DNA of 64,000 nucleotides, taken from IMG/VR virus record IMGVR_UViG_3300045988_146577, one strand, 5' to 3'. The notes beneath the pieces are model-generated. The model saw only the letters and a program-made list of their open reading frames with translations, was not told the origin of the DNA and searched no databases. Positions 2,459 to 59,810 of this stretch are shown here, piece by piece (the first letter of the stretch is position 1; every line of letters begins with the position of its first letter). The DNA comes from a virus (lineage: Duplodnaviria > Heunggongvirae > Uroviricota > Caudoviricetes). Both the position numbers and the translations under genes were made by a program.

Positions 2459-2553
2459 GCGTTTTTCCTTTGTTTTCTAATGAGCGTTCAACTTCTTATA
2501 TAAATATATCATTATCTATCGTAAGTGGTTACTTATCGTTAAGGCTGTTTTGT

Positions 2554-4662
2554 TCACTTTAAAATGATACGAGATAGTTCAGTAACTACAGATGAACCAA
2601 GACTATCAACGCTCGTTACCAGGGCATGATTTGCGTAAAATCTCTCCGGTGCATCAGTCATGATGCCAATTGCCATCAAATCAATGTCAGTCTGCGTTTC
2701 AATTTGCTTCGCAACCGAACGCAAATGAGCGTCAAAACCTCTCCCAACAGCCCACGGCTCGCCATCGCTCAGAACAAGCATGATCTTCCTGTCCTCCATG
2801 CGACCGGAAAATAACGATGCAAGGCTGGCTATGCTTTCACCATCCACGTTATTAAGAAGTGGGAATGTGTAGCCTACGCACCCCATACGTGAGCGAACTT
2901 CGCGAGAATTTGCTTTTTCATTCCAATTTTTGATGATAGGTAGCATTAAAGATTCAAAGCGAGAGAACTCATATTTGATAGCCTTAAGTTCTCCTGCTGC
3001 CATATGACTGCCAAATGTAGTGAAGCCGGTGATAATGTTGGGAACATTTATTCGATCAAGTGCATCGGCGATGGTATATGCACTTGCAAGAGCTAGTTTT
3101 ATCGTTTCGCCACTCATTGAACCCGATAAATCAATCACTTGTTGAACACAGGCGTTAACGGCTTTAGATTCTTCTTTTTTACGAAACACGCGATCATCAT
3201 TCATTGTTAATCTGTAGATACTTGAACCATGAATGCGCCCCCGACGCTGGCCAGGTATAAACTGAACTCTGTTTCTGCTTGCTATTGCACGTTCCAGGTC
3301 TTTTGCCAGCGTCGACGAAACACCTGACGAAAGGTGCTTTTCAATATATTTGTCGAAGAGTTGGTTGCCTTCAGGAACGATGCGATAACGGCTGATTGGA
3401 TATCCACCTAAATCAATATCGGAGAATGTTTTAATAAGCCGTTTGATATGGGCTTCTGCCTGATCAATCGAGCCGATGAAGTCGTATGAGCGATTGTATG
3501 GCCTGTATTCGCTTTTCGAGCTTTCTGTTAACTCGCTTTTAATCGTTTCGGATAGCGCATCTTCTGTCATGCCTCCGACTTCATCTTCCATGCTATCCAA
3601 CTCCTCTAAAGCCTCTTCCAGACTCATTTTTGACGGAGTTGGAATGTCTGAAGAGCCGTCTTCTGTCGTTTTTCTTTTTTCGTGGTCAGCGGTTAATGAT
3701 TCTGACGCCGCGTTATCAGAAGCATCAGAATCTGATACCGCTTTATCATTTTCTGTATCATCGAATATTGTTTCTGATGATTCAGGATTATCTGAATCAT
3801 CACTGTCGTTATTATCATGTTTGTGCTTACTATGTGACTCTGATTTAATAGATTTGTGATTATCTAACGATGAGGGTGTCTCATGATCTTCGTTGTCTTC
3901 ATTGTTTTCTCCAGAGGCATCCGTCTGGTCAGCGTCTGAAGGATCGGAAGTTTTTCCCGGAGCTGACTCCTTACCTTTGCTTTCACTTTCAGTGTCTTTG
4001 AGGATCTTAGCTATGGTCGCAGCCACCTTTACACAATCCTCGGTGCAAGACATGTTACGCACGGCCACATCGATACCATGTTCTTTTAATAATGAAATTG
4101 GTTTCTCAATGACAGGCCAATATTCATCCATGAAATCTACGAACGGTGCTTGGCCATCCCAGGCTCTTACAACCGGACAGAGAAAGAAGTTTAGAAAAAG
4201 CGCGCGCTGATCTTTGCCACAATAAGCAATAGCCTCTGAAGCCTTTGGTTTAAAGACTTTTTCGATTATAAGGCGCTGAGTTGCCATCAGATTACGTCTT
4301 GTTCCGTTAAAGACCTGACCCATTTTTCGCTCGATGAACACGTCTTCTAAGGCATTCCATAGCGACCAGGAAGGAACGCGTCCTTTTTCTCTCATTTTGT
4401 TGGACACACGAATATCGGTAAACAAAATGTGAGCAACCTCATGATCGAGAAATCCGCGCACAGCATTCATCAATGCCGGTGTTGCGTTATCCGGGATTGA
4501 TGGGATGTTTACGAGAATTGGCTCTCCATCATCGTTATAGCGTACATAAGCGTCGTCCCCTCGTTCTGCAACAGGGATGTTTTTACCTGAAAGGAGAGCG
4601 ACTACTCGTTTTACACTGTCACGGAAGTCCTGAACCTCTTTGATGGAACGTTTTTTAGACAT
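2554..4662 (-). CDS. von Willebrand factor A (vWA) domain protein with long acidic Ser/Asp/Glu-rich central region (CobT-like)
   Basis: C-terminal MIDAS-like motif VIDLSGSMSG; strongly acidic low-complexity middle; directly upstream of the AAA+ gene on same strand. Confidence 0.75.
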   Translation of the reverse strand: MSKKRSIKEVQDFRDSVKRVVALLSGKNIPVAERGDDAYVRYNDDGEPILVNIPSIPDNATPALMNAVRGFLDHEVAHILFTDIRVSNKMREKGRVPSWSLWNALEDVFIERKMGQVFNGTRRNLMATQRLIIEKVFKPKASEAIAYCGKDQRALFLNFFLCPVVRAWDGQAPFVDFMDEYWPVIEKPISLLKEHGIDVAVRNMSCTEDCVKVAATIAKILKDTESESKGKESAPGKTSDPSDADQTDASGENNEDNEDHETPSSLDNHKSIKSESHSKHKHDNNDSDDSDNPESSETIFDDTENDKAVSDSDASDNAASESLTADHEKRKTTEDGSSDIPTPSKMSLEEALEELDSMEDEVGGMTEDALSETIKSELTESSKSEYRPYNRSYDFIGSIDQAEAHIKRLIKTFSDIDLGGYPISRYRIVPEGNQLFDKYIEKHLSSGVSSTLAKDLERAIASRNRVQFIPGQRRGRIHGSSIYRLTMNDDRVFRKKEESKAVNACVQQVIDLSGSMSGETIKLALASAYTIADALDRINVPNIITGFTTFGSHMAAGELKAIKYEFSRFESLMLPIIKNWNEKANSREVRSRMGCVGYTFPLLNNVDGESIASLASLFSGRMEDRKIMLVLSDGEPWAVGRGFDAHLRSVAKQIETQTDIDLMAIGIMTDAPERFYANHALVTSVDSLGSSVVTELSRIILK

Positions 4663-4760
4663 GGCTAATCCTTTGTTATGAAAACAAATTATTTACTAGT
4701 GTGTTTAATGTAGCACTGCGCGAACAGGGAACTAAGCCATTCGCGCAGGGAGAAGAGGGG

Positions 4761-4973
4761 TTAACAGATTCTGACGGCTAAAGACCCGGAGCCGGTATTG
4801 AGAAGCGTGAAGCGTTTGTTGTTAAGTTCGAATATAAATCCAGTTGTGTCATTCACACCAACCTGAATCTGCTCATTCGGTAGATCGGTGAGGATGTCAG
4901 CTACACACTCATCAACTAATTTCTGTACGTGTCCGATCTCAAGAGCGATTAGGCTGGAAATAGTGGTGTTCAT
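4761..4973 (-). CDS. hypothetical small protein
   Basis: 70 aa ORF, no recognisable motif. Confidence 0.3.
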   Translation of the reverse strand: MNTTISSLIALEIGHVQKLVDECVADILTDLPNEQIQVGVNDTTGFIFELNNKRFTLLNTGSGSLAVRIC

Positions 4974-5224
4974 TCAATCAATCCATTCTAACTTATACTA
5001 TGGTAAGGAATACTACTAAAATTTATATCAATACTGAATACATTCATATCATATGCAAGTTGATTTTCTTACCTGTTTTGGGCTAATTTTTCTCCGTGCA
5101 ATGGCCTTTAACCGGTCTTTTAAGTGCCTATCGAAAAAAATGATAATAGCTTTACAACCCTAACCTTTGATGTAATATCGGTAAGCACTTACCAGAGAGA
5201 ATTGAACGCGCAAAGGTTGTAACC

Positions 5225-5611
5225 ATGTCTGATAACAAGATTGAATTTATAGAAAGTCGCTACGCTGCTTTTATCGCAGGGTTGATTGAATCCTCACCTA
5301 TGAGCCAGGCCCAGATAGCCAAAACAATTGGGTATAAAAACGCCAACAACCTTTCTTTAATTAAAAGCGGCAAAATTCCTTTGCCTATCGATAAGGTTCG
5401 TCCGCTGGCGCTGGCACTGGGCATTGAGCCAAGTCGTCTTATGATGATGGTGCTGGAAGAACGCCAACCCGAACTCGCAGCATTTTTATACAAAGAAGGC
5501 ACTGCTCCTCTTAACGAGGACGAAAAACAGGTTCTTGCTGCATATAACGAGCGATTCGGTAAAGAGAAAGGCGCATCACAAAAGGTTGTTGAGGCCATAA
5601 AGTCTCTATGA
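5225..5611 (+). CDS. HTH DNA-binding regulator (XRE-like), candidate repressor
   Basis: 128 aa; helix-turn-helix-like segment SQAQIAKTIGYKNANNLSLIKSGK; palindrome GGTAAGCACTTACC about 35 nt upstream. Confidence 0.55.
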   Translation: MSDNKIEFIESRYAAFIAGLIESSPMSQAQIAKTIGYKNANNLSLIKSGKIPLPIDKVRPLALALGIEPSRLMMMVLEERQPELAAFLYKEGTAPLNEDEKQVLAAYNERFGKEKGASQKVVEAIKSL

Positions 5612-6709
5612 AAAATTTACACGAATAAGCTCTGTTGATAGACGATCTCCCTTAAATTTGTGGTCAATTTCGTCTAAATCCGGTTGCTCTACGATTGATG
5701 CGATGTACGTCGAGAAACTTTCTAAGGCGTCTCGCATCTCGTCCATATAATCGTGCCGGTCGTAGACCCGATCTATCCCCTCAAGACTGTGGTTCATGAT
5801 TTTACGTGATACCTCCTGGCTTATGCCTAATGCTGGGAAGTAACTACGCGCAGTACGGCGCAAATCTCGGGGTGTAAATGGCTCAAGCTCCATCAGTTCT
5901 GGTCGTTCCAGAATACGACGTAATGCCTGGGCTATTGCCACTTTAGACATAGGAAGGTCTTTCCCGATTTTTTTATTCGAAGGCACGAGCCACTGGCTGT
6001 CTTTACCATATTCGAACAACTCTTCAATACAAGTGCGCATTAATGAGCTTAAAGGCAGAGAATGCTCACGGGCAGATTTGTTCCTCTTGCCTTGATTCCA
6101 AACCCCACGCTTAAGATTGAACTCACTTTTTTTAGCCCGCAGTACTTCGTCAGGTCGTCTTGCGGATACAAGACATAGCCTGGCCGCCCATTTTGTACCA
6201 GCACACACATTGAAGTAGTCCCATATATTCCAGAACACCCATACCTCTGCGTCAGTCAGCTTCCGCTCGCGGGGCGTGGGCTTTGCGCCACCGGCAACTT
6301 TGTTAAGTGACATATCGTTTAACGGTGACACGTCTATCATCCCCTGGAAGGCGCACCAGCTAAGGAACTGCTTCATCAGAGAGAAAACGCGGCGGCCCAT
6401 AACAATTTTGCCATCCAGTATTAGTGGGTTGACCAGTTGGTTCACCATGAACCTATTAATATCACTTACTTTTACATCGGCAATGTGCGGAAAAACATGT
6501 ATCAAAATACAATGAACAGCGATCTCTGGCCGACGTCTGGTTATGAGCAGAGATAAGCGAGTGAATAACATGAATGCGTCCGAGAATCTCATGTCATTGC
6601 TGACCTGGGAGATCATAACGGCCTGCATTTGAGATGCTCTTTCGAGATACTCTATCGCCTCTTTTGAGGTGTTCTCCGCAGCGCGTGCTCTGTCAAAGCT
6701 ATTTTTCAT
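5606..6709 (-). CDS. int: tyrosine recombinase / phage integrase
   Basis: 367 aa; C-terminal catalytic region with RDLRRTARS...HSLEGIDRVYDRHDY (R..H..R..Y pattern). Confidence 0.85.
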   Translation of the reverse strand: MKNSFDRARAAENTSKEAIEYLERASQMQAVMISQVSNDMRFSDAFMLFTRLSLLITRRRPEIAVHCILIHVFPHIADVKVSDINRFMVNQLVNPLILDGKIVMGRRVFSLMKQFLSWCAFQGMIDVSPLNDMSLNKVAGGAKPTPRERKLTDAEVWVFWNIWDYFNVCAGTKWAARLCLVSARRPDEVLRAKKSEFNLKRGVWNQGKRNKSAREHSLPLSSLMRTCIEELFEYGKDSQWLVPSNKKIGKDLPMSKVAIAQALRRILERPELMELEPFTPRDLRRTARSYFPALGISQEVSRKIMNHSLEGIDRVYDRHDYMDEMRDALESFSTYIASIVEQPDLDEIDHKFKGDRLSTELIRVNFS

Positions 6710-6725
6710 ATGACAATCACCGAGT

Positions 6726-6745
6726 TACGCCGATGTACTGTATAA
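6726..6745. promoter_or_regulatory. LexA (SOS) box-like site upstream of integrase
   Basis: TACTGTATAAGTAAACAGTA fits CTGT-N8-ACAG; 17-36 nt upstream of int start. Confidence 0.45.
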
Positions 6746-6889
6746 GTAAACAGTATATTAGGCATAGATTCTTATAGGATCAAGAGTAAAAGTAACTCAT
6801 TTTTACTAATGATTCCATACATAGTAGGTATGGAATCATTTTGACGTTGTTTTTTGAATTTTAAGGGAAATGGGAGTGAGTTTGGTGGG

Positions 6890-6916
6890 AATAAAAACGG
6901 CTCCTGTGAGCCGTTA
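6890..6916 (-). terminator. rho-independent terminator after glutaredoxin gene
   Basis: Hairpin ACGGCTCCTGTGAGCCGT followed by U-run on minus strand. Confidence 0.55.
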
Positions 6917-6919
6917 AAA

Positions 6920-7165
6920 TCAGAGGGTGCTGACGTATGCAGCCAGTTCTGTGTATCCGCCAATCGGCTGGCCATCGATCAGCACCTGGGGGATAGTCTC
7001 TACCGGTTTACCAACAATTTCACTTAGTTTTTCCTTGTCGATACCGGCAGTGGTGATGTCGATGTACTCATAATCACCGTAGCCATGTCCCTTTAGTTGC
7101 TTCGCCAGCTCGACCGCACGTTTGCAGTATGAGCAGTTATCTCGTCCGTAGATAGTGATCGTCAT
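6920..7165 (-). CDS. glutaredoxin-like protein
   Basis: 81 aa; CSYC active-site motif near N-terminus, glutaredoxin-like length and layout. Confidence 0.75.
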   Translation of the reverse strand: MTITIYGRDNCSYCKRAVELAKQLKGHGYGDYEYIDITTAGIDKEKLSEIVGKPVETIPQVLIDGQPIGGYTELAAYVSTL

Positions 7166-7512
7166 TGCTTTGCCTCATGCCACTTTTGCTTCAGGAGATA
7201 GCCTTCCAGGGGCCAGATTTGATCGATAGCATCTTTTCGAGCGTACTCGCGACCAACATCAAAGTTGAAGATTTCTGGTCTTACGCACGCAGATTTTCCC
7301 GTTACGGTATATCCATTTTTGAGAACCATAACGCAGAACGTTAAGAGTTTTAACGACTCATGACCTTTGTCGATATCTGTTTTTGAATTGTAAACAGAGA
7401 TGAAGTTATCCCCGTGGCTGGCATCATATGCAGTGAAATAATGTTCACTTTGAATGAGTTGTTCAATGTGTTCAGGGGTGACTTTTAGTGGTGTGTTATC
7501 TTTGCTGGTCAT
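7162..7512 (-). CDS. hypothetical protein
   Basis: 116 aa ORF overlapping glutaredoxin start by 4 nt (coupled). Confidence 0.5.
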   Translation of the reverse strand: MTSKDNTPLKVTPEHIEQLIQSEHYFTAYDASHGDNFISVYNSKTDIDKGHESLKLLTFCVMVLKNGYTVTGKSACVRPEIFNFDVGREYARKDAIDQIWPLEGYLLKQKWHEAKQ

Positions 7513-7555
7513 TATTTCTTCCTACAAAGTTCGTAGACTTGACTCTTTCAGTTGC

Positions 7556-7585
7556 AAAAAAGGGGCCGAAGCCCCTTTGAATTTT
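7556..7585 (-). terminator. rho-independent terminator (possibly bidirectional) after tRNA cluster
   Basis: GGGGCCGAAGCCCC hairpin flanked by A6 on one side and TTTGAATTTT on the other. Confidence 0.6.
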
Positions 7586-7732
7586 GCGCTGAAAAAAGTG
7601 TTGCTAGGATGTTAGCAAGCTATGGTTAAGAACGTCTGCCGTAATTGTCTATCACAGCGTTGAGCGGTCTGGTTTATGTTAGCGGAGTCTTAATCTGGGT
7701 GATTAAAAGGCCAAACCGCTCAACGCTGTGTC

Positions 7733-7819
7733 TGGCGGAGAGTAATGGAATCGAACCATCATCGCTTGCGCAATGGGACGGTTTTCAAGACCGCTTGAGC
7801 ACCATGCTCCCTACTCTCC
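7733..7819 (-). tRNA. tRNA-Ser (anticodon UGA), about 87 nt
   Basis: Acceptor stem GGAGAGT/ACTCTCC, discriminator G, encoded CCA, anticodon loop CUUGAAA, long variable arm; folded by eye. Confidence 0.6.
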
Positions 7820-8139
7820 AGCTATTGTGATGGTCGGTGCTGAACTCCGACACAGGGTTGTAGCAAGCCCCGCAAAGCGCGCACTACTGTAGTTGCGGCA
7901 CATCAGCCTGTGCATTCATCACAACGGTAAGATCACTACCTTTCGACCAGTCATTGTGCACATGAACGACGATTAACCGTAATGATCTTATCGTTGTGTT
8001 GTGAAGCCAGATGCTTATCTTCTGGTTGCTTCAAAGAGCTGCACTTCCTCACAACGGTAAGAGCACTGGTCTGACTCTATCGATTTACGGGCTTGTGGGT
8101 CAGTATCGCCGATTCGCCCAATGCTCTTACCTGTTGTGT

Positions 8140-8215
8140 TGGTGCCGGTTAACGGGATCGAACCGCTGACATCCTGCTTACAAGGCAGACGCTCTACCAA
8201 CTGAGCTAAACCGGC
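8140..8215 (-). tRNA. tRNA-Thr (anticodon UGU)
   Basis: Acceptor GCCGGTT/AACCGGC, anticodon loop CUUGUAA, T-loop GGTTCGATCC, encoded CCA. Confidence 0.65.
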
Positions 8216-8219
8216 AATT

Positions 8220-8306
8220 TGGTGGGGAGTGATGGAGTCGAACCACCCGAGTCGCAATGACAGTAGATTTACAGTCTACCCCGCTGCCCCTACGGACTAA
8301 CTCCCC
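8220..8306 (-). tRNA. tRNA-Tyr (anticodon GUA)
   Basis: Acceptor GGGGAGT/ACTCCCC, anticodon stem-loop GTAGA-CUGUAAA-TCTAC, T-loop GGTTCGACTCC, long variable arm, CCA. Confidence 0.65.
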
Positions 8307-8311
8307 TAAAT

Positions 8312-8386
8312 TGGCGATGGTGGGTGGATTCGAACCACCGACCAGTTGGTTAACAGCCAACTGCTCTACCGCTGAGCTACACCATC
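8312..8386 (-). tRNA. tRNA-Asn (anticodon GUU)
   Basis: Acceptor GATGGTG/CACCATC, anticodon stem-loop GTTGG-CUGUUAA-CCAAC, T-loop GGTTCGAATCC, CCA. Confidence 0.65.
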
Positions 8387-9164
8387 AATTCAGCACTGCC
8401 AGTATTTATTACTCAACAGTGCCAATCGCGACGGTTTAGTTTCTGCCAGGAAACGCACCGCTACTTGCACTTTTCGTTAGTGCCAGACGCTTTCGACTTC
8501 GCTCAATAGTAGAAGGCAAAATCTTTAAGTAGATGATGTTTCTGAGGACAGCACCTACTTTGTAATTTATACAATGTGATGTATGGAATCATTTGTTGTG
8601 AAAACAGGCACCAATGGCAACAGTGGTTAAACCTACACAACAATCCTGTCTTCACAACGTTGAGGCCACTACTCCGATTGAATGTTTGCCCAACATGTTA
8701 CATATCAACGCTCGCCGGTATCTCTGTGAATAGAACCTTAGAATTGATAAAAATGTAATGGCCTCAACGTTGTGTGCTGGCTAACCATACCAGCCGGGCT
8801 ACGTCGCCGCTTTTTAACCCAGTATAAACGACATAATTGAACAAAATGACGTAACAGGATGGGCGGTCAGTGGCTAAGAATCCGGGAGTCATATGGAGTT
8901 GAAAATATACCAACCACCCATTCTGTTACTTCATCGGAGGGAACATGAATGTTCCCTCCTGCGTTCTGCAATCACACTCGCTCAGTGTGTCCCATTTCGG
9001 TAACGAGGCTGGAAACTGACCTCGCTGGTGTTTGGCTTATTAGGCTACTGCCAGATAGACTTCTTCGTTTGCACTTGTATTTAAGTTCAAACAGTCGCGT
9101 CTCAACGAAAACAAAGTCATCTTATACATAAAAGATAAGTAAGTAAATACTTATCACCATGTTT

Positions 9165-9455: not shown

Positions 9456-9600
9456 TTTCTAACCTTTGTTTCATGAACTACCCGATACACACGCTTTCCG
9501 ATGCACAGTGTTTTGGTTTTAAGTTCCTGCTTAATTAAATCACGACAGATGCCGAAGCCGATAAGGAAGCCACCCATAAAAGCTAATGAGATGTATGGAA

Positions 9601-9816: not shown

Positions 9817-9975
9817 CCTTAATCTCCTTCAGGGTGTTGGTTATTTCTACAATGCGATAAATACGACCGCGTCTTTCTATAACACCGCTTTTAATGTAGT
9901 CATTGATGCAACTGGACATCACCACAATACCTATGAAAAAACCAACTGCTAAAAATGCAATCATCCAGCCGAGCA

Positions 9976-11777: not shown

Positions 11778-11832
11778 AAATAATCTTGTACTTACCTATC
11801 ATTCTTTGCGTAAAAAACGACACACTGAGAGA

Positions 11833-12609: not shown

Positions 12610-12684
12610 ACCAACTCCTAGCTAACAGATGAAAGTATTCTTACAGAAAGATAAGTAATCATCTACTTATTTTAGCGGCACTTG

Positions 12685-16081: not shown

Positions 16082-16190
16082 CTGGTAGGTAGTTACTTAC
16101 TTATCACAATGAGCGGATGATAGCGACTGGTGGCAGTTTTTGGAAGTGGAAACGGAAGGGAGTTGTTCTGGTGGTGTCTTTTAAAAGACC

Positions 16191-16244
16191 TGCTTCCGTA
16201 TATATTTAATAAGTTACTTATTATTTATATATACAGAAGCAGGC
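16191..16244. repeat. 54-bp AT-rich palindromic element, copy 1 of 2
   Basis: CCTGCTTCCGTATATATTTAATAAGTTACTTATTATTTATATATACAGAAGCAGG; one mismatch to copy at 47801-47855; sits in a divergent intergenic region. Confidence 0.8.
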
Positions 16245-21090: not shown

Positions 21091-21280
21091 GAAAAGTCAA
21101 ATCGGGATGGCGGATTTATATCACATTTCACCCTTTTGTTGTAGGTGTGTACTTACCTATCTATGTATATACCGTTTAACGGCTGTTCAAATTCGTATCT
21201 AGTAACTCACTAATATATCCCTATGATTGCGGCTGTGAGATCGCATTTTAAACCTCACAGCCATATAAATAATGTCTAAA

Positions 21281-25306: not shown

Positions 25307-25399
25307 GTTGAATATGCTCCTTGATTTGGCGGGCTATCCTTGCCCGCCATTAAGTAAATACTTACCTATTTTTACCGATATAAAATTTTTTTTCCACCA

Positions 25400-32248: not shown

Positions 32249-32297
32249 CCTGTCAGCGCCACAATGATAGTAAATTAGTACTTACTTATCCAGATAC

Positions 32298-38766: not shown

Positions 38767-38804
38767 TCATTGCGCTAATAGTAAGTATATACTTACTAAT
38801 TGAG

Positions 38805-42310: not shown

Positions 42311-42383
42311 TTCTTGCTCCTACAAAAAGGGTGGGCGTATAGCCCACCCTTTAACATAGATAACTACTTATCTACTACACTGA

Positions 42384-44193: not shown

Positions 44194-45768
44194 TCACTCG
44201 TTCTCTTGAGTAGATGAGTCCCCATTCCCTCGGGGTTGATCTTGCCCGCTTTCTTGGGCTGCGCCTTGATCATAAGTAAGTACTGACTTATTTTCAAGAG
44301 TATTTAGATCATTTTTTGGCGGAAAATTCAAGAGATCTTTATCAAATTCCTTCTTCATCGCCTCAGTGATGTTCGGGAAAATCTTCTCAATCAGCATTTC
44401 CATCTGGTGACGACGTACAGAGTCCGGTGCCTGAAGTAACGACAGTTTCTCGGCAACAGAAAATTCATCAGTAAGGCCACGAATATCGAAACTTTCTGGA
44501 TACGCAATTAATGAGTGGTCTTCGTCCAGATCTACCCCCATCCATTTCGCAACCAGTAGCATGATTTGGCGTTCAGCCCTTTCCAGACGCTCTGCTTTTG
44601 TGACAAGCAAGCTATTTACACGCTGGAAGTCATACATTTTTGCGGCACCAGATGAGTTATCGATTCCCTGTGCGTTGTCCTGCTTCGTTCGCTCACCAGC
44701 TACACCAACTGAATGGTAGATTTCGTTAATCACCGTCTTAATCGTAGTGATGATCATCTGAGCTTGTTTCGGGTCTGGTGACAGATAAAACGGCTGGTTT
44801 CCACCTTCAGAATCGTAGGTGAAGACTCGCTTTGTGCCCATTTCAAGCACTTTAGTGTGGTTTTCATCACCAGGTAAAAGCGACTGTACCGGTATAGCCA
44901 ACTGGCTAAATGTCTGATCCTGAATAATGGCATCAAGGTTTGACAGATAGTTTGCAACCGCACGATCAAGATAAGCGATATCATCGATCAACGATGGGCT
45001 GAAATACGGTGATTCACTTTCTCCAATACAATCAACAGGAAACACAGGAACTACGCCGAGATTATGCTCACCGCTATCCTCTAAAATAACTTTTGCCTGA
45101 CGGCGACCTGCTCCACCAGCGCCCTTCTTCACTTCCTCACGGAACAGATACCACTCGTTTTGTGTCCACAGACGATAACGTTGGTATTCCTGACCTGTAG
45201 AAGTAAAAGGATCTGCGTCATCACGAGCGACTTCCACAATTAACGCCCACAACATATTCCCGTCGTCGTCCCATGCCACATCCAGCATTTGCTGAGGTGA
45301 AATCCAGTAGGCGTAGGCGCGAGCATCTTTCTTTTTCTCGTCAGCTACTGACTCAACATCACCACTCATCGTGCTATCGACAACAACCCATATGCGACCG
45401 TAAATAGACGACTGCAAATCAATAGCGGCCATAAATGAGTCAATAGAGGCATTCTGGCGAGTCGCACGTTTCCAGAAATTGCGGATCTGCTCTGGTGCCT
45501 CTTCGATATTTCTATGAATGTCTTCTTTAAAGAGATATTTGTTGATGAGGTTTACCACCTCACGAGTGTGGTTGAAGCGATAAGCACGCTCAACTCGCTC
45601 CTTAAACTCCTGATCTCCCTCTTTAAAGTAACGAAAGATATTGTCTGTAAACCAACCACGCCCGCCAGCGTAAGTGCTGGCGAGGAAGTCCCAATGTTCT
45701 TTTTTCTTTTCGTATTCCGGGTGGCGTCGCGCCACCAGATCCTTAATTTGTTTGTCGTTCAATTCCAT
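44194..45768 (-). CDS. portal protein
   Basis: 524 aa ORF directly downstream of terminase large subunit. Confidence 0.75.
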   Translation of the reverse strand: MELNDKQIKDLVARRHPEYEKKKEHWDFLASTYAGGRGWFTDNIFRYFKEGDQEFKERVERAYRFNHTREVVNLINKYLFKEDIHRNIEEAPEQIRNFWKRATRQNASIDSFMAAIDLQSSIYGRIWVVVDSTMSGDVESVADEKKKDARAYAYWISPQQMLDVAWDDDGNMLWALIVEVARDDADPFTSTGQEYQRYRLWTQNEWYLFREEVKKGAGGAGRRQAKVILEDSGEHNLGVVPVFPVDCIGESESPYFSPSLIDDIAYLDRAVANYLSNLDAIIQDQTFSQLAIPVQSLLPGDENHTKVLEMGTKRVFTYDSEGGNQPFYLSPDPKQAQMIITTIKTVINEIYHSVGVAGERTKQDNAQGIDNSSGAAKMYDFQRVNSLLVTKAERLERAERQIMLLVAKWMGVDLDEDHSLIAYPESFDIRGLTDEFSVAEKLSLLQAPDSVRRHQMEMLIEKIFPNITEAMKKEFDKDLLNFPPKNDLNTLENKSVLTYDQGAAQESGQDQPRGNGDSSTQENE

Positions 45769-45794
45769 TTGAATAACCTTAGATAATTACTTAC

Positions 45795-47051
45795 CTATCG
45801 AGAGCCACCAAGAATAACACGGTTTTTGACTGGATACCTACGATGTACTGGATAGCCCAATGCGTCTGCACTATGCTCAATGCCACCTGTCTTATCCATA
45901 TCTCGTGTTCCAGGCTTGTAGATGACTTTTTCCAGTGAATCAATCAAATGCTTGCACTTCGGATCGATATACAGCCGGATATCTCCAGATGCGGTCATCA
46001 GCATTCGGTTAACAGCATTAACACGATCCGCAATTGGCGGGTGCTTTTTCGAATAATCGACACGTAAGAATCCCTTCTCTTTGAATATGTCGACGTCAGA
46101 CTCCCCGCGAGCATGTTGGCGATAAGCACCTGCCGGATCTGGAAATACCGTTATCTGTGATTTCCAGCGCCAGAAGCGTCTCTCAAGCTCATCACAAACC
46201 TCTGCCGTGTTAGAGGAAAAGAGCACCAATTCATCAATTGCCCATAGCTCACCATTTGGCTGAGGTTGCAAAATTACTGAAGACATCGGGTCAATGTTGA
46301 AGTCCTGCCCTACCCATATAGGCAACCGAGGGTTGAACTGAAGCGGTTTTACATGCACGTTACGATCGAACGGGTAGTAAACGCGCCCGGACATGTTCTC
46401 AAAGCTCGCCAGGTACTCCTGAGCGAACGATTTCGGGTCCATATCGTTCTTAGCAGCTTCAATTTCCGCCGTAGGTACAAACGGAGAATCGGCAGTTACA
46501 AACTGCCAGCTCTTCCACTGTCCCTTTCTTTGCAGCTCTACGTTCTGGCCTATAGTCCACAGTTTGTGAAATTCCGAGAAGCCTTTTGGCGTACCAATGA
46601 TCAGTGCACCGCCGCGTGTCGATGAAAGAGTAGGTCGTAACACCTTGTACCAGGTGTCAGCCTTCATATCCTGAAATTCATCAAGCACTACAAAATGCAA
46701 CGCTACGCCGCGCAGAGTGTCAGGCTTATCAGCACCTTTGAGGGCGATCTCCGAACCGTTCTTCAACACGATTGTCATCGTGGTGTCGTTCTTTCTCCTA
46801 ACCCACTTACGAGGCAGAACTTCCTGTAGATCGTCCCACAAAATCTGGCGAGCCATCTGGTAAGTAGGAGCGACATACCAGACCCTTTGCTTTTTTTCCT
46901 TTGCCGCCGCACGAATAATAGTGGAGATCGACAACCGGGATTTTCCCCAGCGTCGACCAGCACAAACAACTTTAAATCGATGCGGAGACTGGAAGACTTT
47001 CATCTGTCCAGAATGCAGTTGCACAAGACTGAGCGAGGACGGGATTGCCAT
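45795..47051 (-). CDS. terminase large subunit
   Basis: 418 aa; Walker A VVCAGRRWGKS, Walker B-like VVLDEFQDM, C-terminal nuclease-like region. Confidence 0.8.
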   Translation of the reverse strand: MAIPSSLSLVQLHSGQMKVFQSPHRFKVVCAGRRWGKSRLSISTIIRAAAKEKKQRVWYVAPTYQMARQILWDDLQEVLPRKWVRRKNDTTMTIVLKNGSEIALKGADKPDTLRGVALHFVVLDEFQDMKADTWYKVLRPTLSSTRGGALIIGTPKGFSEFHKLWTIGQNVELQRKGQWKSWQFVTADSPFVPTAEIEAAKNDMDPKSFAQEYLASFENMSGRVYYPFDRNVHVKPLQFNPRLPIWVGQDFNIDPMSSVILQPQPNGELWAIDELVLFSSNTAEVCDELERRFWRWKSQITVFPDPAGAYRQHARGESDVDIFKEKGFLRVDYSKKHPPIADRVNAVNRMLMTASGDIRLYIDPKCKHLIDSLEKVIYKPGTRDMDKTGGIEHSADALGYPVHRRYPVKNRVILGGSR

Positions 47052-47800: not shown

Positions 47801-47855
47801 CCTGCTTCCGTATATATTTAATAAGTTACTTATTATTTATATATACAGATGCAGG
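47801..47855. repeat. 54-bp AT-rich palindromic element, copy 2 of 2
   Basis: One mismatch to copy at 16191-16244; lies between the ParB/ATPase/GNAT/wHTH operon and the terminase operon. Confidence 0.8.
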
Positions 47856-48146: not shown

Positions 48147-48155
48147 GGCAAATCC

Positions 48156-49708: not shown

Positions 49709-50406
49709 GCAGCCATCTCCCCGGAAGAGATCTTCTCCGCATATGCCACAAATGCGTCTACCCCGCTTTCTCCCGTCATTTCTTCCATGTGGGCAAGCAA
49801 ATCACCAACAACAATGGCAGAGCCAGCAGGGAGCGTTTTAAAGCCCAATACGTCGACAACACGTACTTCTTCCGCTGCAACTTCACGACTGATCTCGGTG
49901 TGTTCATCCTTCTGTCGTTTAGTTTCTTCGCCAAGATCGATAACTAGCGAGTCGGTGTCCATTTCTTCTGTCATGCTGCCAACGAGAACATTCAACTCAC
50001 GCTCTTCAAAGCCGAAAACCTCGATATCGTCCAGAACAAGCGACTCAAGCTCTTTCTGTAGCTTAATTGCATCGTAATCAATGCTGGCAAGTCGGTTATC
50101 TTCAAGGCGCTTCGCACGAACCTCGTCATCACTGAGATCATCGCGAACAATAACCGGTACGCGCTCAAGTCCAGCAAAAATTGCAGCCTCACGGCGGCCG
50201 TGGCCAGTAATAATTACGTCGTTCTTATCGACCGTAATTGGCTGGTCAAATCCGCGCTTTTTAATGGCTGCGGCCAGATCTCGGATCTGCTGTTCATCAT
50301 GCTTTTTGGCATTCATCTCATAGGGAATAAGATCTGCCGGGTCGCGATATACGATTTCAAACTTTTTGGTCATTACATACGCTCCTTGTAGTAGTCGACC
50401 AGCCAC
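49705..50406 (-). CDS. ParB N-terminal-domain (ParB/Srx-like) protein, paralog 1
   Basis: 233 aa; ParB-box-like ITGHGRREAA; no obvious HTH; acidic C-terminus. Confidence 0.65.
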   Translation of the reverse strand: MAGRLLQGAYVMTKKFEIVYRDPADLIPYEMNAKKHDEQQIRDLAAAIKKRGFDQPITVDKNDVIITGHGRREAAIFAGLERVPVIVRDDLSDDEVRAKRLEDNRLASIDYDAIKLQKELESLVLDDIEVFGFEERELNVLVGSMTEEMDTDSLVIDLGEETKRQKDEHTEISREVAAEEVRVVDVLGFKTLPAGSAIVVGDLLAHMEEMTGESGVDAFVAYAEKISSGEMAA

Positions 50407-51071
50407 ACCAGAGCCTCACCAGCGTTCTCCATTTCATTACCGGTGTTAATAGCCTGCTCTTTGATGATGTTTTTTATGGTTTCTGCAACACGATCTGACG
50501 CATCGAAAGTTACTTTGAAGCGCATGGTCTGATGTTCCGCACCCACACGTTCGGTTTTCTCTCGTTTGTCGGTATCGACAGGCTCATCACTACCACGAGA
50601 CAACGCCTCCAGTGCTTCAAGGTCGATTGCCGCCTCTTTTGCTAAAACCATCGAGATTTCGTCGTCATACGGGGCGATTTCAGACAGTTGATAGTCAAGT
50701 TCTGACTGAATTTCTTCAATGAAGCGTTGCAATGCGATTTGGTCGTCTTCACCGTATCGCTCGTTGTCCACCAGTGACATCTGTTTAGCTACGACATCGC
50801 TAATTTTGCCCACAGAAAGCACCGGAACCGTTGAAATTCCTTGCTCAATAGCAGCACGCCAGCGATGTTCGCCGCCGAGGATTTCAAAAAATCCATCTTC
50901 AAGTTCACGAGCCAAAATTGGCTTAAAAAAGCCCAATTTTTCGATAGAACCTTTCAGTTTTTCAAAATTCTGCGCACCAACCGAATTGGTGTTCCAGGTA
51001 TTCGGGCGAAGGTTGGCAACATCAACCTGCAAAATCGTGATTTTTACATCCATTTTATTGCTACAATCCAC
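50373..51071 (-). CDS. ParB N-terminal-domain (ParB/Srx-like) protein, paralog 2
   Basis: 232 aa; classic ParB box ILGGEHRWRAAIEQG; first gene of operon. Confidence 0.7.
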   Translation of the reverse strand: MDCSNKMDVKITILQVDVANLRPNTWNTNSVGAQNFEKLKGSIEKLGFFKPILARELEDGFFEILGGEHRWRAAIEQGISTVPVLSVGKISDVVAKQMSLVDNERYGEDDQIALQRFIEEIQSELDYQLSEIAPYDDEISMVLAKEAAIDLEALEALSRGSDEPVDTDKREKTERVGAEHQTMRFKVTFDASDRVAETIKNIIKEQAINTGNEMENAGEALVWLVDYYKERM

Positions 51072-51135
51072 TAAGTAATCACTTACTTATTATAATAGCC
51101 AAATAACATACAAAAGGCACTAAGGAAAGAGGTTT

Positions 51136-54895: not shown

Positions 54896-55417
54896 ATGGT
54901 TAAAGACATCACCTACGGCATACCGGCTGAAGTATGGCCGCGAGACTACGAACATGCTGAACGCACCTTGCTCTTCTGGCGGAGAGCTAAATTTCCTGTA
55001 AGAGTCACTCTCGAAGACGGCCAAGTGTTTTGCATGTACGTTTATGGTCTCATGTCATCTCGTAACAAAGTTGACCTTTGTCCAACTCCATTTGACAAAG
55101 AAAATCGTATAAGGCTCCCACTTGAGCGCATTAGCACAATTGAATCAGGCGTAATTGATGGCATTGATTACGATTTCAAAGGGAGACTAACAATACACCC
55201 TGACTATGTAGACAACCAGCCATCACGTCGTGACTTTTTTAAGATATGTCGTCAGGCTTACCAAAACGGCAAATCTATAAGGGTCTACATGGCAGACGGT
55301 CGCGAAATTGAGGGAACGTCAGATGGCGTTGACGCCTGTCTAGTCACACTTAAGTTGGAAGACGGTAGAAAAATACTTATTTTCTTCGATTGGGTTGAAC
55401 GAATCCTTCCGTTTTAG
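54896..55417 (+). CDS. hypothetical protein
   Basis: 173 aa ORF. Confidence 0.45.
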   Translation: MVKDITYGIPAEVWPRDYEHAERTLLFWRRAKFPVRVTLEDGQVFCMYVYGLMSSRNKVDLCPTPFDKENRIRLPLERISTIESGVIDGIDYDFKGRLTIHPDYVDNQPSRRDFFKICRQAYQNGKSIRVYMADGREIEGTSDGVDACLVTLKLEDGRKILIFFDWVERILPF

Positions 55418-58858: not shown

Positions 58859-59233
58859 TTACCACCAGGCGCAGAAGGTCAGTCTGTTATTGTGAAAGTC
58901 GTGGTTCTTAATCAGATCTTCCACAAGCTCTTTCAACTCCCCCACATCATGCCAGTAACCTTCATCGTACTCCTGACTGCCGAAGAAAAAACCTTCCCGG
59001 GTAGGCAAGTACTCTTCGCAATTACTTTCGTTTATGTGCATCAAATGAGCCTTCAGAAAACAAATGTCATTCATCGTTAATTCTAAAAGCTCACAATTTT
59101 CGACTTCACCTACGTTGCGCTCCATCCACCCAACGAGCGCATTGAACTTACGGAAGTAAGCAACCTGCTTTCTGGATGCCTCGTTATTCAGATCGTTTTT
59201 AGGCTGTGTCTCGATATAGATATCAAGTCCCAT
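58859..59233 (-). CDS. hypothetical protein
   Basis: Start re-assigned to ATG near 59233 after SD AAGGAAA; about 124 aa. Confidence 0.45.
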   Translation of the reverse strand: MGLDIYIETQPKNDLNNEASRKQVAYFRKFNALVGWMERNVGEVENCELLELTMNDICFLKAHLMHINESNCEEYLPTREGFFFGSQEYDEGYWHDVGELKELVEDLIKNHDFHNNRLTFCAWW

Positions 59234-59310
59234 GATGGTTTCCTTATTAAGTTGCTTCAGTGAAATCATTTTCACAAATCAGATAAGGCAGAAAACAAAT
59301 TGTTATCGGG

Positions 59311-59339
59311 CATAATAAAATGGCGCGGTTTGCGCGCCA
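59311..59339 (-). terminator. rho-independent terminator
   Basis: GGCGCG/CGCGCC hairpin followed by U-run on minus strand, just after the stop at 59351. Confidence 0.5.
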
Positions 59340-59350
59340 TTTAAAGAGGA

Positions 59351-59746
59351 TTAAGCGAATACGCTTTCAGGGATTAAGGTGTCGGCAGGAATGCCAGAGG
59401 TAATGCGCAGACCGTACTGGCCAATCCAGGTGGTGCTGGTGTTCAGGCTGGAGGCGAATACGGTGTTAACCATATTCATCATGGTTTCAAACACCTCTTC
59501 ATCAACCTGGCGGAAGTAGTTCTCGATTTTCAGCAGCAGAGGGTCAGTTGCATCGAGAATGGACTGGTATTGAGTCGCGTACTCGCCGCCGGAGGCATCA
59601 CCTTTACGCACGATCGTACTGGCCTGGACTTCGGCACCAGTTTCGGTGTTGTACGTAACAACGGTGATTTTTGCCACATTCTTACCTTCGGCGGTTTCAG
59701 AGGCATAGTAAACATCAACTGTCAGTTTTTCGCGTTTAACGGTCAT
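59351..59746 (-). CDS. hypothetical protein
   Basis: Start re-assigned to ATG near 59746 after SD GGAGAG; about 131 aa; TAAGTATGTACTTA palindrome upstream. Confidence 0.5.
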   Translation of the reverse strand: MTVKREKLTVDVYYASETAEGKNVAKITVVTYNTETGAEVQASTIVRKGDASGGEYATQYQSILDATDPLLLKIENYFRQVDEEVFETMMNMVNTVFASSLNTSTTWIGQYGLRITSGIPADTLIPESVFA

Positions 59747-59810
59747 TTCACTCTCCGTAGTGTTTTGGTTATTTTTATATTCTATGATCGTAAGTATGTA
59801 CTTACAATAC

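What the first reader, a model, noticed from the sequence alone, without database searches (positions are those of the whole stretch)
2521..59798. Second dispersed palindrome family B (TAAGTA-N2-6-TACTTA) upstream of many operons
Near-perfect copies occur 30-60 nt upstream of starts across replication, lysis, tail, head and regulator genes: 5181 (GGTAAGCACTTACC before the HTH gene), 9142, 12653, 25351, 32275, 38780, 51078 (between ParB operon and helicase) and 59785; weaker copies at 2521, 16086, 21141, 42355 and 45786. The core of the duplicated 54-bp palindrome is a variant (AAGTTACTT). A genome-wide operator set of this kind is reminiscent of phage-plasmid repressors with many dispersed operators.
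Basis: seen in the sequence. Interest (0 to 1): 0.55.

Follow-up and report, generated by a model that had tools for sequence, protein, structure and literature searches.

The report
Dispersed palindromic operators in phage-plasmid
A 20-22 bp palindrome sits in front of about fifteen gene blocks in this SSU5-type phage-plasmid and is conserved in its relatives, so it is most likely a set of binding sites through which one element-encoded protein switches the viral genes together.

Summary
The window is an SSU5-like phage-plasmid, about 98% identical to Escherichia phage CMS-2020a and close to Cyrano/pLF82. The motif is better described as a fixed-length palindrome, (GA)TAGGTAAGT|ACTTACCTA(TC). 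The reported "N2-6" spacer is an artefact of its 4-nt periodicity.

At 15 or more of 18 matches the window has 12 sites, against 0.2 expected. Ten of the 12 are intergenic. TAAGTA is the most intergenic-enriched hexamer in the window and in full Cyrano, and second in SSU5.

Sites are phylogenetic footprints at the same gene junctions in E. coli, Salmonella and Klebsiella elements. A distant Acinetobacter relative has a co-evolved variant (TTAGTAAGC|GCTTACTAA, 33 sites), several at corresponding junctions.

There is no sign of an RNA hairpin and no Lpa homolog. The palindrome overlaps conserved sigma70-like promoters at variable register, which suits a repressor operator better than an activator box.

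The best candidate binder is the XRE HTH protein at 5225-5611. It has a conserved self-operator, occurs in nearly all plasmid-state relatives, and is missing from the virion-isolated phage SSU5. A ParB-like protein and a P1-Lpa-like activator box remain rivals. No binding was tested. This is a new member of a known kind, of moderate interest.

The parts
2522..2539 (-). Weak site (gene direction ACGATAAGT|AACCACTTA), 62 nt upstream of the CobS-like gene.
   Evidence: Conserved in SSU5 and Klebsiella orthologous spacers while the flanks diverge.
5151..5178 (+). Predicted sigma70-type promoter of the HTH gene, TTTACA-16-TAATAT.
   Evidence: The same hexamers and spacing occur in Klebsiella pJN2-26, Salmonella pCFSAN076155 and Y. 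pestis pMT.
5178..5195 (.). Variant palindrome TCGGTAAGCACTTACCAG on the predicted +1 of the HTH promoter. It lies in the divergent region between the HTH gene and a 70-aa ORF.
   Evidence: Conserved in Klebsiella (GGTAAGTACTTACC), Salmonella and Yersinia.
5225..5611 (+). XRE-family HTH protein (CYRAN_45 homolog, 128 aa). Best candidate for the protein that binds the palindrome.
   Evidence: Pfam HTH_19 and PHROG 'transcriptional regulator'. Listed as putative repressor and expressed in the LF82 lysogen (PMC9928086). Absent from SSU5. Occurs about 1:1 with the SSU5-type portal in plasmids.
9136..9153 (-). Site TAAGTATTT|ACTTACTTA (16/18), after CYRAN_39 and upstream of the tRNA cluster.
   Evidence: Conserved in SSU5 and Klebsiella.
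11781..11798 (-). Site TAGGTAAGT|ACAAGATTA (14/18), 3 nt before the CYRAN_35 start.
12648..12673 (-). Site between the primase gene and CYRAN_34. Two registers are possible (AAAATAAGT-N8-ACTTATCTT or TAGATGATT|ACTTATCTT).
   Evidence: Conserved in SSU5.
16086..16103 (-). Site TAAGTAAGT|AACTACCTA (16/18), 13 nt before the start of CYRAN_31, which lies upstream of the DnaB-like helicase.
16206..16224 (.). Core (TTAATAAGTTACTTATTAT) of the first roughly 54-bp palindrome. It resembles the motif with one extra central base.
   Evidence: Copies exist in Cyrano, SSU5, Klebsiella and Acinetobacter relatives.
21142..21159 (-). Site TAGGTAAGT|ACACACCTA (16/18), 63 nt upstream of the holin gene.
   Evidence: The SSU5 ortholog is a 28-bp perfect palindrome with centre GC|GC.
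25351..25368 (-). Site TAGGTAAGT|ATTTACTTA (17/18) between tail protein J and the tail fibre gene, followed at once by a GC hairpin.
32271..32288 (-). Site TAAGTAAGT|ACTAATTTA (17/18) between tail genes M and L, followed by a GC hairpin.
   Evidence: A sigma70-like TGGATA-17-TATCAT overlaps it.
38782..38799 (-). Site TTAGTAAGT|ATATACTTA (15/18), 51 nt upstream of the major tail-type protein gene.
   Evidence: A conserved TTGAAT-18-TATACT promoter-like match has its -10 inside the palindrome.
42357..42374 (-). Site TAGATAAGT|AGTTATCTA (17/18) between the capsid gene and the Ig-like gene, followed by a terminator-like hairpin.
44273..44290 (-). Intragenic site TAAGTCAGT|ACTTACTTA (17/18) near the 3' end of the portal gene, 100 nt before the next gene.
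   Evidence: Present in Cyrano, SSU5 and Klebsiella, but coding constraint confounds this conservation.
45780..45797 (-). Site TAGGTAAGT|AATTATCTA (17/18) between the large terminase and portal genes, 11 nt before the portal ATG.
   Evidence: The ortholog is a perfect palindrome in Klebsiella. The Acinetobacter variant sits at the same junction.
47818..47836 (.). Core of the second roughly 54-bp palindrome, 134 nt upstream of the small terminase gene.
50373..51071 (-). ParB-like protein 1, the rival candidate binder.
   Evidence: Pfam ParB_N. Aligns with Spo0J chain 1vz0 residues 23-171. A motif site lies just upstream of its gene in every lineage (18 nt in the window, 20 nt in Acinetobacter).
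51072..51089 (.). Site in the divergent region between the ParB-like operon (18 nt away) and the UvsW helicase operon (46 nt away). Read on the + strand it runs into TATTAT/TATAAT.
59791..59808 (-). Site ATTGTAAGT|ACATACTTA (14/18), directly after a terminator and 44 nt upstream of CYRAN_107.
   Evidence: A conserved TTGTAA-17-TAGAAT promoter-like match has its -35 inside the palindrome.

Best explanation
The element is a dispersed set of operators: a 20-22 bp DNA palindrome, (GA)TAGGTAAGT|ACTTACCTA(TC). It occurs about 15 times in this window and about 25 times per genome.

Proposed mechanism, all of it inferred rather than shown:
1. The sites lie on or next to the promoters of the lytic-cycle transcription units (replication, nucleotide metabolism, head, tail, lysis).
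2. A dimeric protein encoded by the element binds them and blocks host RNA polymerase.
3. Where the site covers the -35, the spacer, the -10 or the start site, binding blocks initiation. Where the site sits inside an operon against the ribosome-binding site (for example terminase to portal), binding acts as a roadblock.
4. One protein thereby keeps the roughly 100-kb virus silent while it lives as a plasmid.

The most likely binder is the XRE-family HTH protein at 5225-5611, next to the integrase. Its own predicted promoter carries a variant operator at +1, which suggests autoregulation.

Shown here: existence, enrichment, conservation, DNA-level symmetry and overlap with promoter-like sequences. 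Inferred: protein binding, repression, and the identity of the binder.
For: Enrichment and placement:
- 12 sites against 0.2 expected, 10 of 12 intergenic, and not explained by AT-richness.
- TAGGTAAGTACTTACCTA occurs in 31 IMG/VR loci, all SSU5-like.

Conservation and DNA-level symmetry:
- Sites are footprints in orthologous spacers of Cyrano, SSU5 and Klebsiella pJN2-26.
- The half-sites vary independently. Positions 3 and 16 show no covariation, and G.U (36) versus A.C (29) shows no strand bias. Hairpin energies do not differ between strands.
- The Acinetobacter relative pZHOU-1 (portal 52% identical) has 33 copies of TTAGTAAGC|GCTTACTAA, several at junctions corresponding to the enteric sites (portal, nrdA, SbcD, CobS, the ParB|helicase divergent region). 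The changes are symmetric in both halves.

Relation to promoters:
- Sigma70-like promoters that score the same in two or three lineages overlap the palindrome at different registers. TTGAAA-17-TATCAT has its -10 at motif positions 17-22. TTGAAT-18-TATACT has its -10 at positions 11-16. TTGATA-17-TAACAT has the palindrome filling the spacer. TTGTAA-17-TAGAAT has its -35 at positions 2-7. Others place the palindrome at +1 to +20.
- Strong matches are more frequent on the gene-direction strand: 17 of 58 against 6 of 58.

The HTH protein as binder:
- A conserved TTTACA-16-TAATAT promoter with the variant palindrome at +1 is found in E. coli, Klebsiella, Salmonella and Yersinia.
- Two variant sites lie in the same region of the Acinetobacter element.
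- The HTH gene occurs about 1:1 with the SSU5-type portal in plasmids: Klebsiella 347/341, Enterobacter 92/91, Yersinia 63/62, Salmonella 49/49.
- It is missing from the virion-isolated phage SSU5, although a Salmonella plasmid that is 96% identical over the aligned 5.5 kb has it.
- It is listed as putative repressor and is expressed about 10-fold above local background in the LF82 lysogen (PMC9928086).
Against: - No binding, repression or transcription-start data exist for any site.
- Many sites (portal, J/fibre, holin) have no convincing sigma70 promoter.
- The promoter scoring used approximate matrices written from memory, and AT-rich DNA gives chance matches.
- At three sites in the window (25351, 32271, 42357), and at the nrdA-upstream sites in the full Cyrano, SSU5 and Klebsiella genomes, the palindrome is followed at once by a GC hairpin. 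Three of these four families also have a T-run before the ribosome-binding site. This is not explained by the model.
- The motif is almost unchanged between E. coli, Klebsiella, Salmonella and Yersinia elements, although the HTH protein is only 56-66% identical. Immunity repressors usually diversify together with their operators.
- SSU5 keeps about 24 good sites without the HTH gene. This is compatible with a recent deletion, but equally with a different binder that SSU5 retains.
- Orthologous sites are not independent observations.
Confidence: 0.5

Rival explanations
1. The palindrome is an activator-dependent promoter box, working like the '-22 region' of bacteriophage P1 late promoters. An element-encoded activator would bind it next to a -10 hexamer and recruit host RNA polymerase to promoters that lack a -35.
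For: - P1 late promoters annotated in NC_005856 read AAGT(T/G)ACTT-N4-TAnnAT. The centre of the SSU5-type motif is AAGT|ACTT, followed 3 nt later by TAtyAT.
- In Acinetobacter the motif often runs into a perfect TATAAT.
- A purine-rich position lies 6 nt after that hexamer.
- Most sites lack a good -35.
- Sigma70-like matches are depleted in the structural region: 8 against 23.7 expected.
- The 54-bp palindromes carry AAGTTACTT, identical to the box of P1 LPs and LPdar.
Against: - No Lpa homolog was found by tblastn, by tblastn against all phage records, where only P1-like phages match, or by a three-sequence HMM.
- The -10-like hexamer is the mirror image of the left flank (ATGATA/TATCAT), so it is not independent evidence.
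- It is not conserved at the portal site.
- At the portal and methylase sites there is no room for a transcript start before the ribosome-binding site.
- The conserved promoter-like matches sit at different registers relative to the palindrome.
- The sites also precede replication and nucleotide-metabolism genes, not only late genes.
Confidence: 0.2
2. The sites are loading or binding sites for the ParB-like proteins encoded at 49705-51071. These would be parS/NBS/KorB-operator analogues used for global silencing by a sliding clamp, or for organising or packaging the genome.
For: - ParB-like protein 1 has a ParB_N domain and aligns with Spo0J residues 23-171, beyond the N-terminal domain.
- ParB, Noc and KorB proteins bind palindromes of similar length, some at many dispersed sites (established knowledge, from memory).
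- A motif site lies just upstream of this gene in E. coli, Salmonella, Klebsiella and Acinetobacter elements (18 nt in the window, 20 nt in Acinetobacter).
- The gene is retained in SSU5, which also retains the sites.
Against: - The ParB-like genes are not among those reported as expressed above background in the LF82 lysogen.
- The sites are tied to gene starts and promoter-like sequences rather than clustered.
- The DNA specificity of these proteins is unknown.
- The autoregulation argument applies equally to the HTH gene.
Confidence: 0.15
3. The palindrome acts as an RNA hairpin in the 5' leaders or intercistronic regions, as a processing, stability or translational-operator element.
For: - It lies in transcribed spacers close to ribosome-binding sites.
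- The upstream arm is somewhat better conserved than the downstream arm: 21 against 8 sites.
- An FljA-like protein, from a family that acts on fliC mRNA (PMC2652032), is encoded at 54896-55417.
Against: - G.U 36 against A.C 29 in the gene-direction strand, with no covariation between paired positions.
- Hairpins are weak, and their energies are equal on the two strands: -5.45 against -5.16 kcal/mol, p=0.53.
- The sequence, not just the pairing, is conserved.
Confidence: 0.03
4. The repeats have no regulatory role. They would be chance products of AT-rich spacers, or recombination 'boundary' sequences that spread between genes.
For: Spacers are AT-rich, and the motif sits at module junctions, where mosaic phages recombine.
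Against: - Intergenic-only shuffles give 0.08 sites against 10 observed.
- The sites are conserved at orthologous junctions while their flanks diverge.
- The sequence has changed in concert in Acinetobacter.
Confidence: 0.05

Closest known systems
Bacteriophage P1 C1 repressor and its dispersed operators
   Same: A phage-plasmid in which one repressor controls many operons through operators scattered over the genome and overlapping promoters. Examples are annotated in NC_005856 (Oref, Omat, Ossb, Oc4, OrepL, Olpa).
   Different: P1 operators are 17-bp asymmetric sites (from memory), and P1 late genes are switched on separately by Lpa. Here the site is a 20-22 bp palindrome that precedes both replication and structural genes, and the candidate binder is an XRE-type HTH protein.
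Mycobacteriophage L5 repressor gp71 'stoperators'
   Same: About 25-30 sites in short intergenic spaces throughout the genome, including inside operons. There the bound repressor blocks elongation as well as initiation (from memory: Brown et al. 1997).
   Different: Stoperators are 13-bp asymmetric sites that depend on orientation. The SSU5-type sites are palindromes, and many overlap promoter-like sequences. The function here is untested.
IncP (RK2) global regulators KorA and KorB with OA and OB operators
   Same: Plasmid-encoded repressors act on a dozen dispersed palindromic operators at variable positions relative to promoters. KorB is a ParB-family protein, as is one candidate here (from memory).
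   Different: Different sequences and proteins. IncP plasmids are conjugative plasmids, not a virus. No KorA-like partner was identified here.
Bacteriophage P1 Lpa-dependent late promoters
   Same: An inverted repeat with the same half-sites (AAGT/ACTT) lies immediately upstream of a -10-like hexamer at promoters with a poor -35.
   Different: The P1 box is 9 bp with a central base and lies 4 nt from the -10. Here it is the centre of a 22-bp palindrome. No Lpa homolog was found, the sites are not restricted to late genes, and the register relative to promoter-like matches varies.

Membership tests
Repressor operator set (dispersed operators of a prophage or plasmid repressor) | A short site of defined length with dyad symmetry, recurring far above chance. 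| tested here: met
   Fixed 18-22 bp palindrome. 12 sites against 0.2 expected.
Repressor operator set (dispersed operators of a prophage or plasmid repressor) | Sites overlap core promoter elements or transcription start sites. | tested here: inconclusive
   About 12 orthologous site families have sigma70-like matches overlapping the palindrome that score the same in two or three lineages. Other sites have none, and no transcription-start data exist.
Repressor operator set (dispersed operators of a prophage or plasmid repressor) | A cognate DNA-binding protein is encoded by the element, usually with an operator at its own promoter. | tested here: met
   An XRE HTH gene at 5225-5611 has a conserved promoter with a variant palindrome at +1 in four genera. 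A ParB-like gene also has a site upstream.
Repressor operator set (dispersed operators of a prophage or plasmid repressor) | The protein binds the sites and represses transcription. | not testable with these tools
   This needs EMSA or footprinting, ChIP-seq and reporter assays.
Repressor operator set (dispersed operators of a prophage or plasmid repressor) | Both half-sites change together in diverged lineages, as expected if the site co-evolves with a dimeric binder. | tested here: met
   The Acinetobacter variant TTAGTAAGC|GCTTACTAA differs symmetrically from TAGGTAAGT|ACTTACCTA. Its HTH protein is 38% identical.
P1 Lpa-dependent late promoter | A 9-bp inverted repeat AAGTnACTT centred near -22, 4 nt upstream of a -10 hexamer. 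| tested here: inconclusive
   The core is AAGT|ACTT without the central base, 3 nt from a weak TAtyAT that mirrors the left flank. Only the two 54-bp palindromes have AAGTTACTT.
P1 Lpa-dependent late promoter | An Lpa (PF25716) homolog is encoded by the element. | tested here: not met
   No significant match in the window, Cyrano, SSU5 or pJN2-26. Among phage records only P1-like phages match. None of the 24 window proteins that were scanned hit PF25716.
P1 Lpa-dependent late promoter | Restricted to late (morphogenesis and lysis) operons. | tested here: not met
   Sites also precede the SSB, nrdA, thyX, SbcD and methylase genes, the spacer downstream of the primase gene, and the gene (CYRAN_31) that lies upstream of the DnaB-like helicase.
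ParB/Noc/KorB binding sites | A ParB-family protein with a DNA-binding domain is encoded by the element. | tested here: met
   A ParB_N domain and alignment to Spo0J residues 23-171.
ParB/Noc/KorB binding sites | The protein binds this palindrome specifically. | not testable with these tools
Structured RNA element | Pairing is maintained by compensatory or wobble changes on the transcribed strand. | tested here: not met
   G.U 36 against A.C 29, independent variation of paired positions, and equal folding energies on both strands. There is no Rfam match apart from three tRNAs.

The most novel reading that the evidence does not exclude
The AAGT|ACTT palindrome is not a repressor site. It would be the specificity element of a lytic-transcription system that SSU5-type elements share in mechanism with P1 late promoters. 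An activator unrelated in sequence to Lpa (or a small sigma-like factor, such as the weak sigma70-region-2 protein seen in the Acinetobacter relative) would direct host RNA polymerase to about 25 promoters that lack a -35. This would mean two unrelated phage-plasmid families converged on the same promoter box.
Probability: 0.12. Interest if true: 0.75.

Novelty: new member of a known kind. Interest (0 to 1): 0.5.

Why it matters
- SSU5-type phage-plasmids are very common. About 960 PLSDB plasmids carry this type of portal gene.
- The portal and HTH searches also hit about 62-63 Yersinia plasmids, including Y. pestis pMT, and 49 Salmonella plasmids.
- Searches of the open-access literature held here found no description of how these elements keep roughly 100 kb of viral genes silent or how they switch them on.
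- A single palindrome in front of nearly every lytic transcription unit, together with a candidate repressor carrying its own operator, turns this into a directly testable regulon.
- In Y. pestis pMT the same HTH gene, with its promoter and operator, lies about 1.9 kb from the caf1 gene of the F1 capsule operon (19232-19744 versus 16987-17373 in the locus), and motif sites persist in the phage-derived part.
- The predicted immunity test, the HTH gene in trans against phage SSU5, is simple and would settle the question.

Tried and rejected
- **Variable-spacer model (TAAGTA-N2-6-TACTTA).** Replaced by a fixed-length palindrome after re-registering all sites.
- **RNA hairpin.** Suggested at first by apparent G-C, G.T and A-T series between orthologs. 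Rejected after counting wobble against A.C pairs, testing covariation, and comparing folding energies between strands.
- **Membership in the P1 Lpa late-promoter family.** Lpa was searched by tblastn, by a three-sequence HMM and by family scans. Nothing was found.
- **The weak tblastn hit of Lpa to CYRAN_116 (E=0.7).** This gene is absent from SSU5 and Klebsiella, so it was dropped.
- **The FljA-like protein (54896-55417) as binder.** FljA proteins act on fliC mRNA (PMC2652032), so this is more likely a host-directed moron.
- **A phage sigma factor.** It is present only as a weak sub-threshold match in the Acinetobacter relative, with no homolog in the enteric elements.
- **The 14-mer GGTAAGTACTTACC in viral contigs.** The hits were mostly single, scattered matches as expected by chance, and were uninformative.
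- **Literature searches.** Searches for SSU5 or pHCM2 regulation and for the motif strings found nothing relevant. The P1 genome paper (PMC523184) is not held.
- **Pfam and PHROG scans of 24 window proteins.** These gave no further DNA-binding candidates.

Full report
**What the window is.** Bases 40000-52000 are 98% identical to Escherichia phage CMS-2020a. They are 95-99% identical to PhiR41_1 and Cyrano (pLF82) and about 80% identical to Salmonella phage SSU5 and several Klebsiella phage-plasmids. The window is the reverse complement of the Cyrano numbering, so most genes run on the window's minus strand. It holds the CobT/CobS-like genes, an integrase and an HTH gene. It also holds a tRNA cluster, replication genes, a ParA region, lysis genes, the whole tail and head cluster, two ParB-like genes, a UvsW helicase operon and a block of small genes.

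**Check of the observation.**
- The literal pattern gives 6 distinct sites, against 0.01 expected.
- TAAGTA, read in the direction of the genes, is the most intergenic-enriched hexamer in the window (18 of 27 copies in about 10% of the sequence) and in complete Cyrano (26 of 44), and the second most enriched in complete SSU5 (19 of 32, just behind TATATA).
- With a fixed 18-mer consensus, TARRTAAGTACTTAYYTA, the window has 12 sites at 15 or more of 18 matches.
- Whole-window dinucleotide shuffles give 0.20 such sites, and shuffles of the intergenic DNA alone give 0.08. AT-richness therefore does not explain the count.
- Ten of the 12 sites are intergenic.

**What the motif really looks like.** Once all sites are put in one register, the variable N2-6 spacer disappears.
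- The element has a fixed length: (T)GATAGGTAAGT|ACTTACCTATC(A).
- It has TA every four bases, an A-rich left flank and a T-rich right flank.
- The apparent spacers arise because the sequence is built of 4-nt units, and because the inner part of the downstream arm is the least conserved part.
- In the Klebsiella elements many copies are perfect 18-22 bp palindromes.
- The distance from the element to the next start codon is 3-134 nt.

**Conservation.** I aligned the orthologous spacers of the window, Cyrano, SSU5 and Klebsiella phage pJN2-26.
- The exact 18-mer TAGGTAAGTACTTACCTA occurs in 31 stretches of IMG/VR, all of them SSU5-like.
- No paper in the searchable library contains the motif strings or discusses regulation in these elements.
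- A distant relative, Acinetobacter plasmid pZHOU-1 (portal 52% identical), has its own dispersed intergenic palindrome, ATTAGTAAGC|GCTTACTAAT.
- That palindrome has 33 copies, and TAGTAAG is intergenic in 17 of 17 cases.
- Several copies sit at junctions corresponding to the enteric sites: before the portal, nrdA, SbcD-like and CobS-like genes, before the lysis genes, and in the divergent ParB|helicase region.
- The core GTAAG..CTTAC is kept, and the centre and outer positions have changed symmetrically in both halves.

**DNA or RNA?** Some ortholog comparisons looked like compensatory change, so I tested for a hairpin on the transcribed strand.
- Over 53 unique sites there are 36 G.U and 29 A.C oppositions.
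- The most variable pair (positions 3 and 16) varies independently.
- Predicted hairpins are weak and equally stable on both strands: -5.45 against -5.16 kcal/mol, p=0.53.
- Rfam finds only three tRNAs in the window.

The element therefore behaves as a double-stranded DNA site with two half-sites, that is, a site for a dimeric protein.

**Relation to promoters.** The right edge of the palindrome plus its flank reads TAtyAT, and a purine-rich position follows 6 nt later. This hexamer is the mirror image of the left flank (ATGATA/TATCAT). It is also not conserved at the portal junction.

Scoring sigma70-like promoters around all sites gave about a dozen orthologous site families with matches that are the same in two or three lineages. 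The scoring used approximate matrices written from memory. The palindrome lies at a different place in each family:

| Site family | Promoter-like match | Position relative to the palindrome |
|---|---|---|
| Before a membrane-protein gene | TTGAAA-17-TATCAT | -10 at motif positions 17-22 |
| Tail gene (38782) | TTGAAT-18-TATACT | -10 at positions 11-16 |
| nrdA | TTGATA-17-TAACAT | palindrome fills the spacer |
| 59791 | TTGTAA-17-TAGAAT | -35 inside the palindrome |
| ParB-like, methylase, CYRAN_31 | various | palindrome at about +1 to +20 |

- Strong matches are more common on the gene-direction strand: 17 of 58 sites against 6 of 58.
- Several sites follow a terminator directly (59791, and others outside the window), so a promoter must lie there.
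- Other sites abut the ribosome-binding site, such as the portal site at 11 nt, and leave no room for a promoter.
- Variable placement over the -35, spacer, -10 or start site is what repressor operators do. It is not what an activator box does.

**Comparison with P1 late promoters.** The promoters annotated in the P1 record read AAGT(T/G)ACTT-N4-TAnnAT. These are the same half-sites as the centre of this motif. The two roughly 54-bp palindromes in the window carry AAGTTACTT exactly. This resemblance is a lead and does not establish membership:
- No Lpa homolog is detectable in the window, Cyrano, SSU5 or pJN2-26.
- Among 50,697 phage records only P1-like phages have one.
- The sites are not confined to late genes.
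- The geometry differs.

**Who binds?** There are two candidates.

*The XRE HTH protein at 5225-5611.*
- Its predicted promoter TTTACA-16-TAATAT is followed at once by the variant palindrome GGTAAGCACTTACC.
- This arrangement is conserved in Klebsiella, Salmonella and Yersinia elements.
- Acinetobacter has two variant sites in the same region.
- The gene is a near-universal companion of the SSU5-type portal in plasmids.
- The LF82 study lists it as the putative repressor and finds it expressed in the lysogen (PMC9928086).
- It is absent, together with the integrase, from the virion-isolated phage SSU5. A Salmonella plasmid that is 96% identical to SSU5 over the aligned 5.5 kb carries the module.
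- If this protein is the binder it must be a repressor, because SSU5 grows without it.

*ParB-like protein 1 (50373-51071).*
- It has a ParB_N domain and aligns with Spo0J beyond that domain.
- It has a motif site just upstream of its gene in every lineage (18 nt in the window, 20 nt in Acinetobacter).
- It is retained in SSU5.
- It is not among the genes reported as expressed in the lysogen.

The identity of the binder is inference only.

**Most likely mechanism and what remains odd.** I commit to a dispersed operator set through which one element-encoded repressor silences the lytic transcription units in the plasmid state. The XRE HTH protein is the most probable repressor. It would act by promoter occlusion at most sites and by roadblock at sites inside operons. 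Three things remain unexplained:
- The arrangement of palindrome, GC hairpin (in three of the four families followed by a T-run) and ribosome-binding site at 25351, 32271, 42357 and the nrdA sites outside the window.
- The near-constancy of the motif across genera, although the HTH protein is only 56-66% identical.
- The role of the long palindromes.

**Novelty and verdict.** Dispersed operator regulons are known: P1 C1, mycobacteriophage L5 stoperators, and IncP KorA/KorB. This is a new member of that kind in a very widespread and little-studied family that includes Y. pestis pMT, which keeps the sites and the HTH promoter/operator about 1.9 kb from the caf1 gene. Interest is moderate.

Noticed in passing
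window 16190-16240 and 47800-47850 (cores 16206-16224 and 47818-47836): Two near-identical palindromes of about 54 bp (CTTCTGTATATATAAATAATAAGTAACTTATTAAATATATACGGAAG). Cyrano, SSU5 and Klebsiella pJN2-26 each have three, and Acinetobacter pZHOU-1 has one near 67947. One always lies upstream of the small terminase gene, where the Cyrano and SSU5 records begin, and one lies near parA. The core AAGTTACTT equals the -22 box of P1 promoters LPs and LPdar. The function is unknown; it could be a main late promoter or operator, a pac or partition site, or an origin.
   Followed up: partly
window 54896-55417 (+): A strong FljA-family protein (PF03614, E=3.5e-80), conserved in SSU5 and Klebsiella elements. 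FljA proteins block translation of host fliC mRNA, so this may be a moron that shuts off host flagellin rather than a phage regulator.
   Followed up: partly
SSU5 (L003) about 42600-42760, compared with Salmonella plasmid pCFSAN076155 (L142): SSU5 lacks the small ORF, HTH and integrase module, although a plasmid that is 96% identical over the aligned 5.5 kb carries it. Identity stops about 90 nt upstream of the CobT-like gene. The phage isolate may therefore be a repressor-less derivative of a plasmid prophage.
   Followed up: yes
window 25306-25350, 32238-32260, 42325-42349: GC-rich hairpins lie directly downstream of the palindrome and upstream of the ribosome-binding site. The one at 42325-42349 has a T-run like an intrinsic terminator. 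The same arrangement occurs before nrdA in Cyrano, SSU5 and Klebsiella. Elsewhere the order is terminator then palindrome.
   Followed up: partly
window 20001-40000: Sigma70-like promoter matches are strongly depleted in the tail and lysis region: 8 found against 23.7 +/- 4.6 in shuffles. In 1-20000 the count is 15 against 30.7.
   Followed up: no
L140 22485-23150 (Acinetobacter pZHOU-1): The Acinetobacter relative encodes a protein annotated as a sigma-70-family factor right after the CobS-like gene. The Pfam Sigma70_r2 match is below the cut-off (17.9 bits against 24). No homolog is detectable in the enteric elements.
   Followed up: partly
L143 (Y. pestis pMT) 16900-17373 and 19232-24360: In pMT the HTH gene, with its conserved promoter and operator, lies about 1.9 kb from the caf1 gene of the F1 capsule operon. 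The CobT-like gene is interrupted by IS100. Motif sites persist at record positions 51471, 54994, 62040 and 63520.
   Followed up: partly
window 48156-51071 (-): A conserved cluster upstream of the small terminase gene holds two ParB_N-domain proteins, an ABC-type ATPase and a 296-aa protein with no Pfam match. Cyrano annotates this last protein as an ATPase fused to an acetyltransferase. The cluster is also present in Acinetobacter with an added thioredoxin gene. Its role is unknown.
   Followed up: no
window 16349-17422 (+): A 357-aa ORF on the opposite strand, between the ParA region and CYRAN_31. It has no counterpart in the Cyrano annotation and no Pfam match.
   Followed up: no
window 8143-8386 (-): Three tRNA genes, annotated in Cyrano as Asn, Thr and Ser. 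They lie about 750 nt downstream of motif site 9136-9153, with no annotated gene in between.
   Followed up: no
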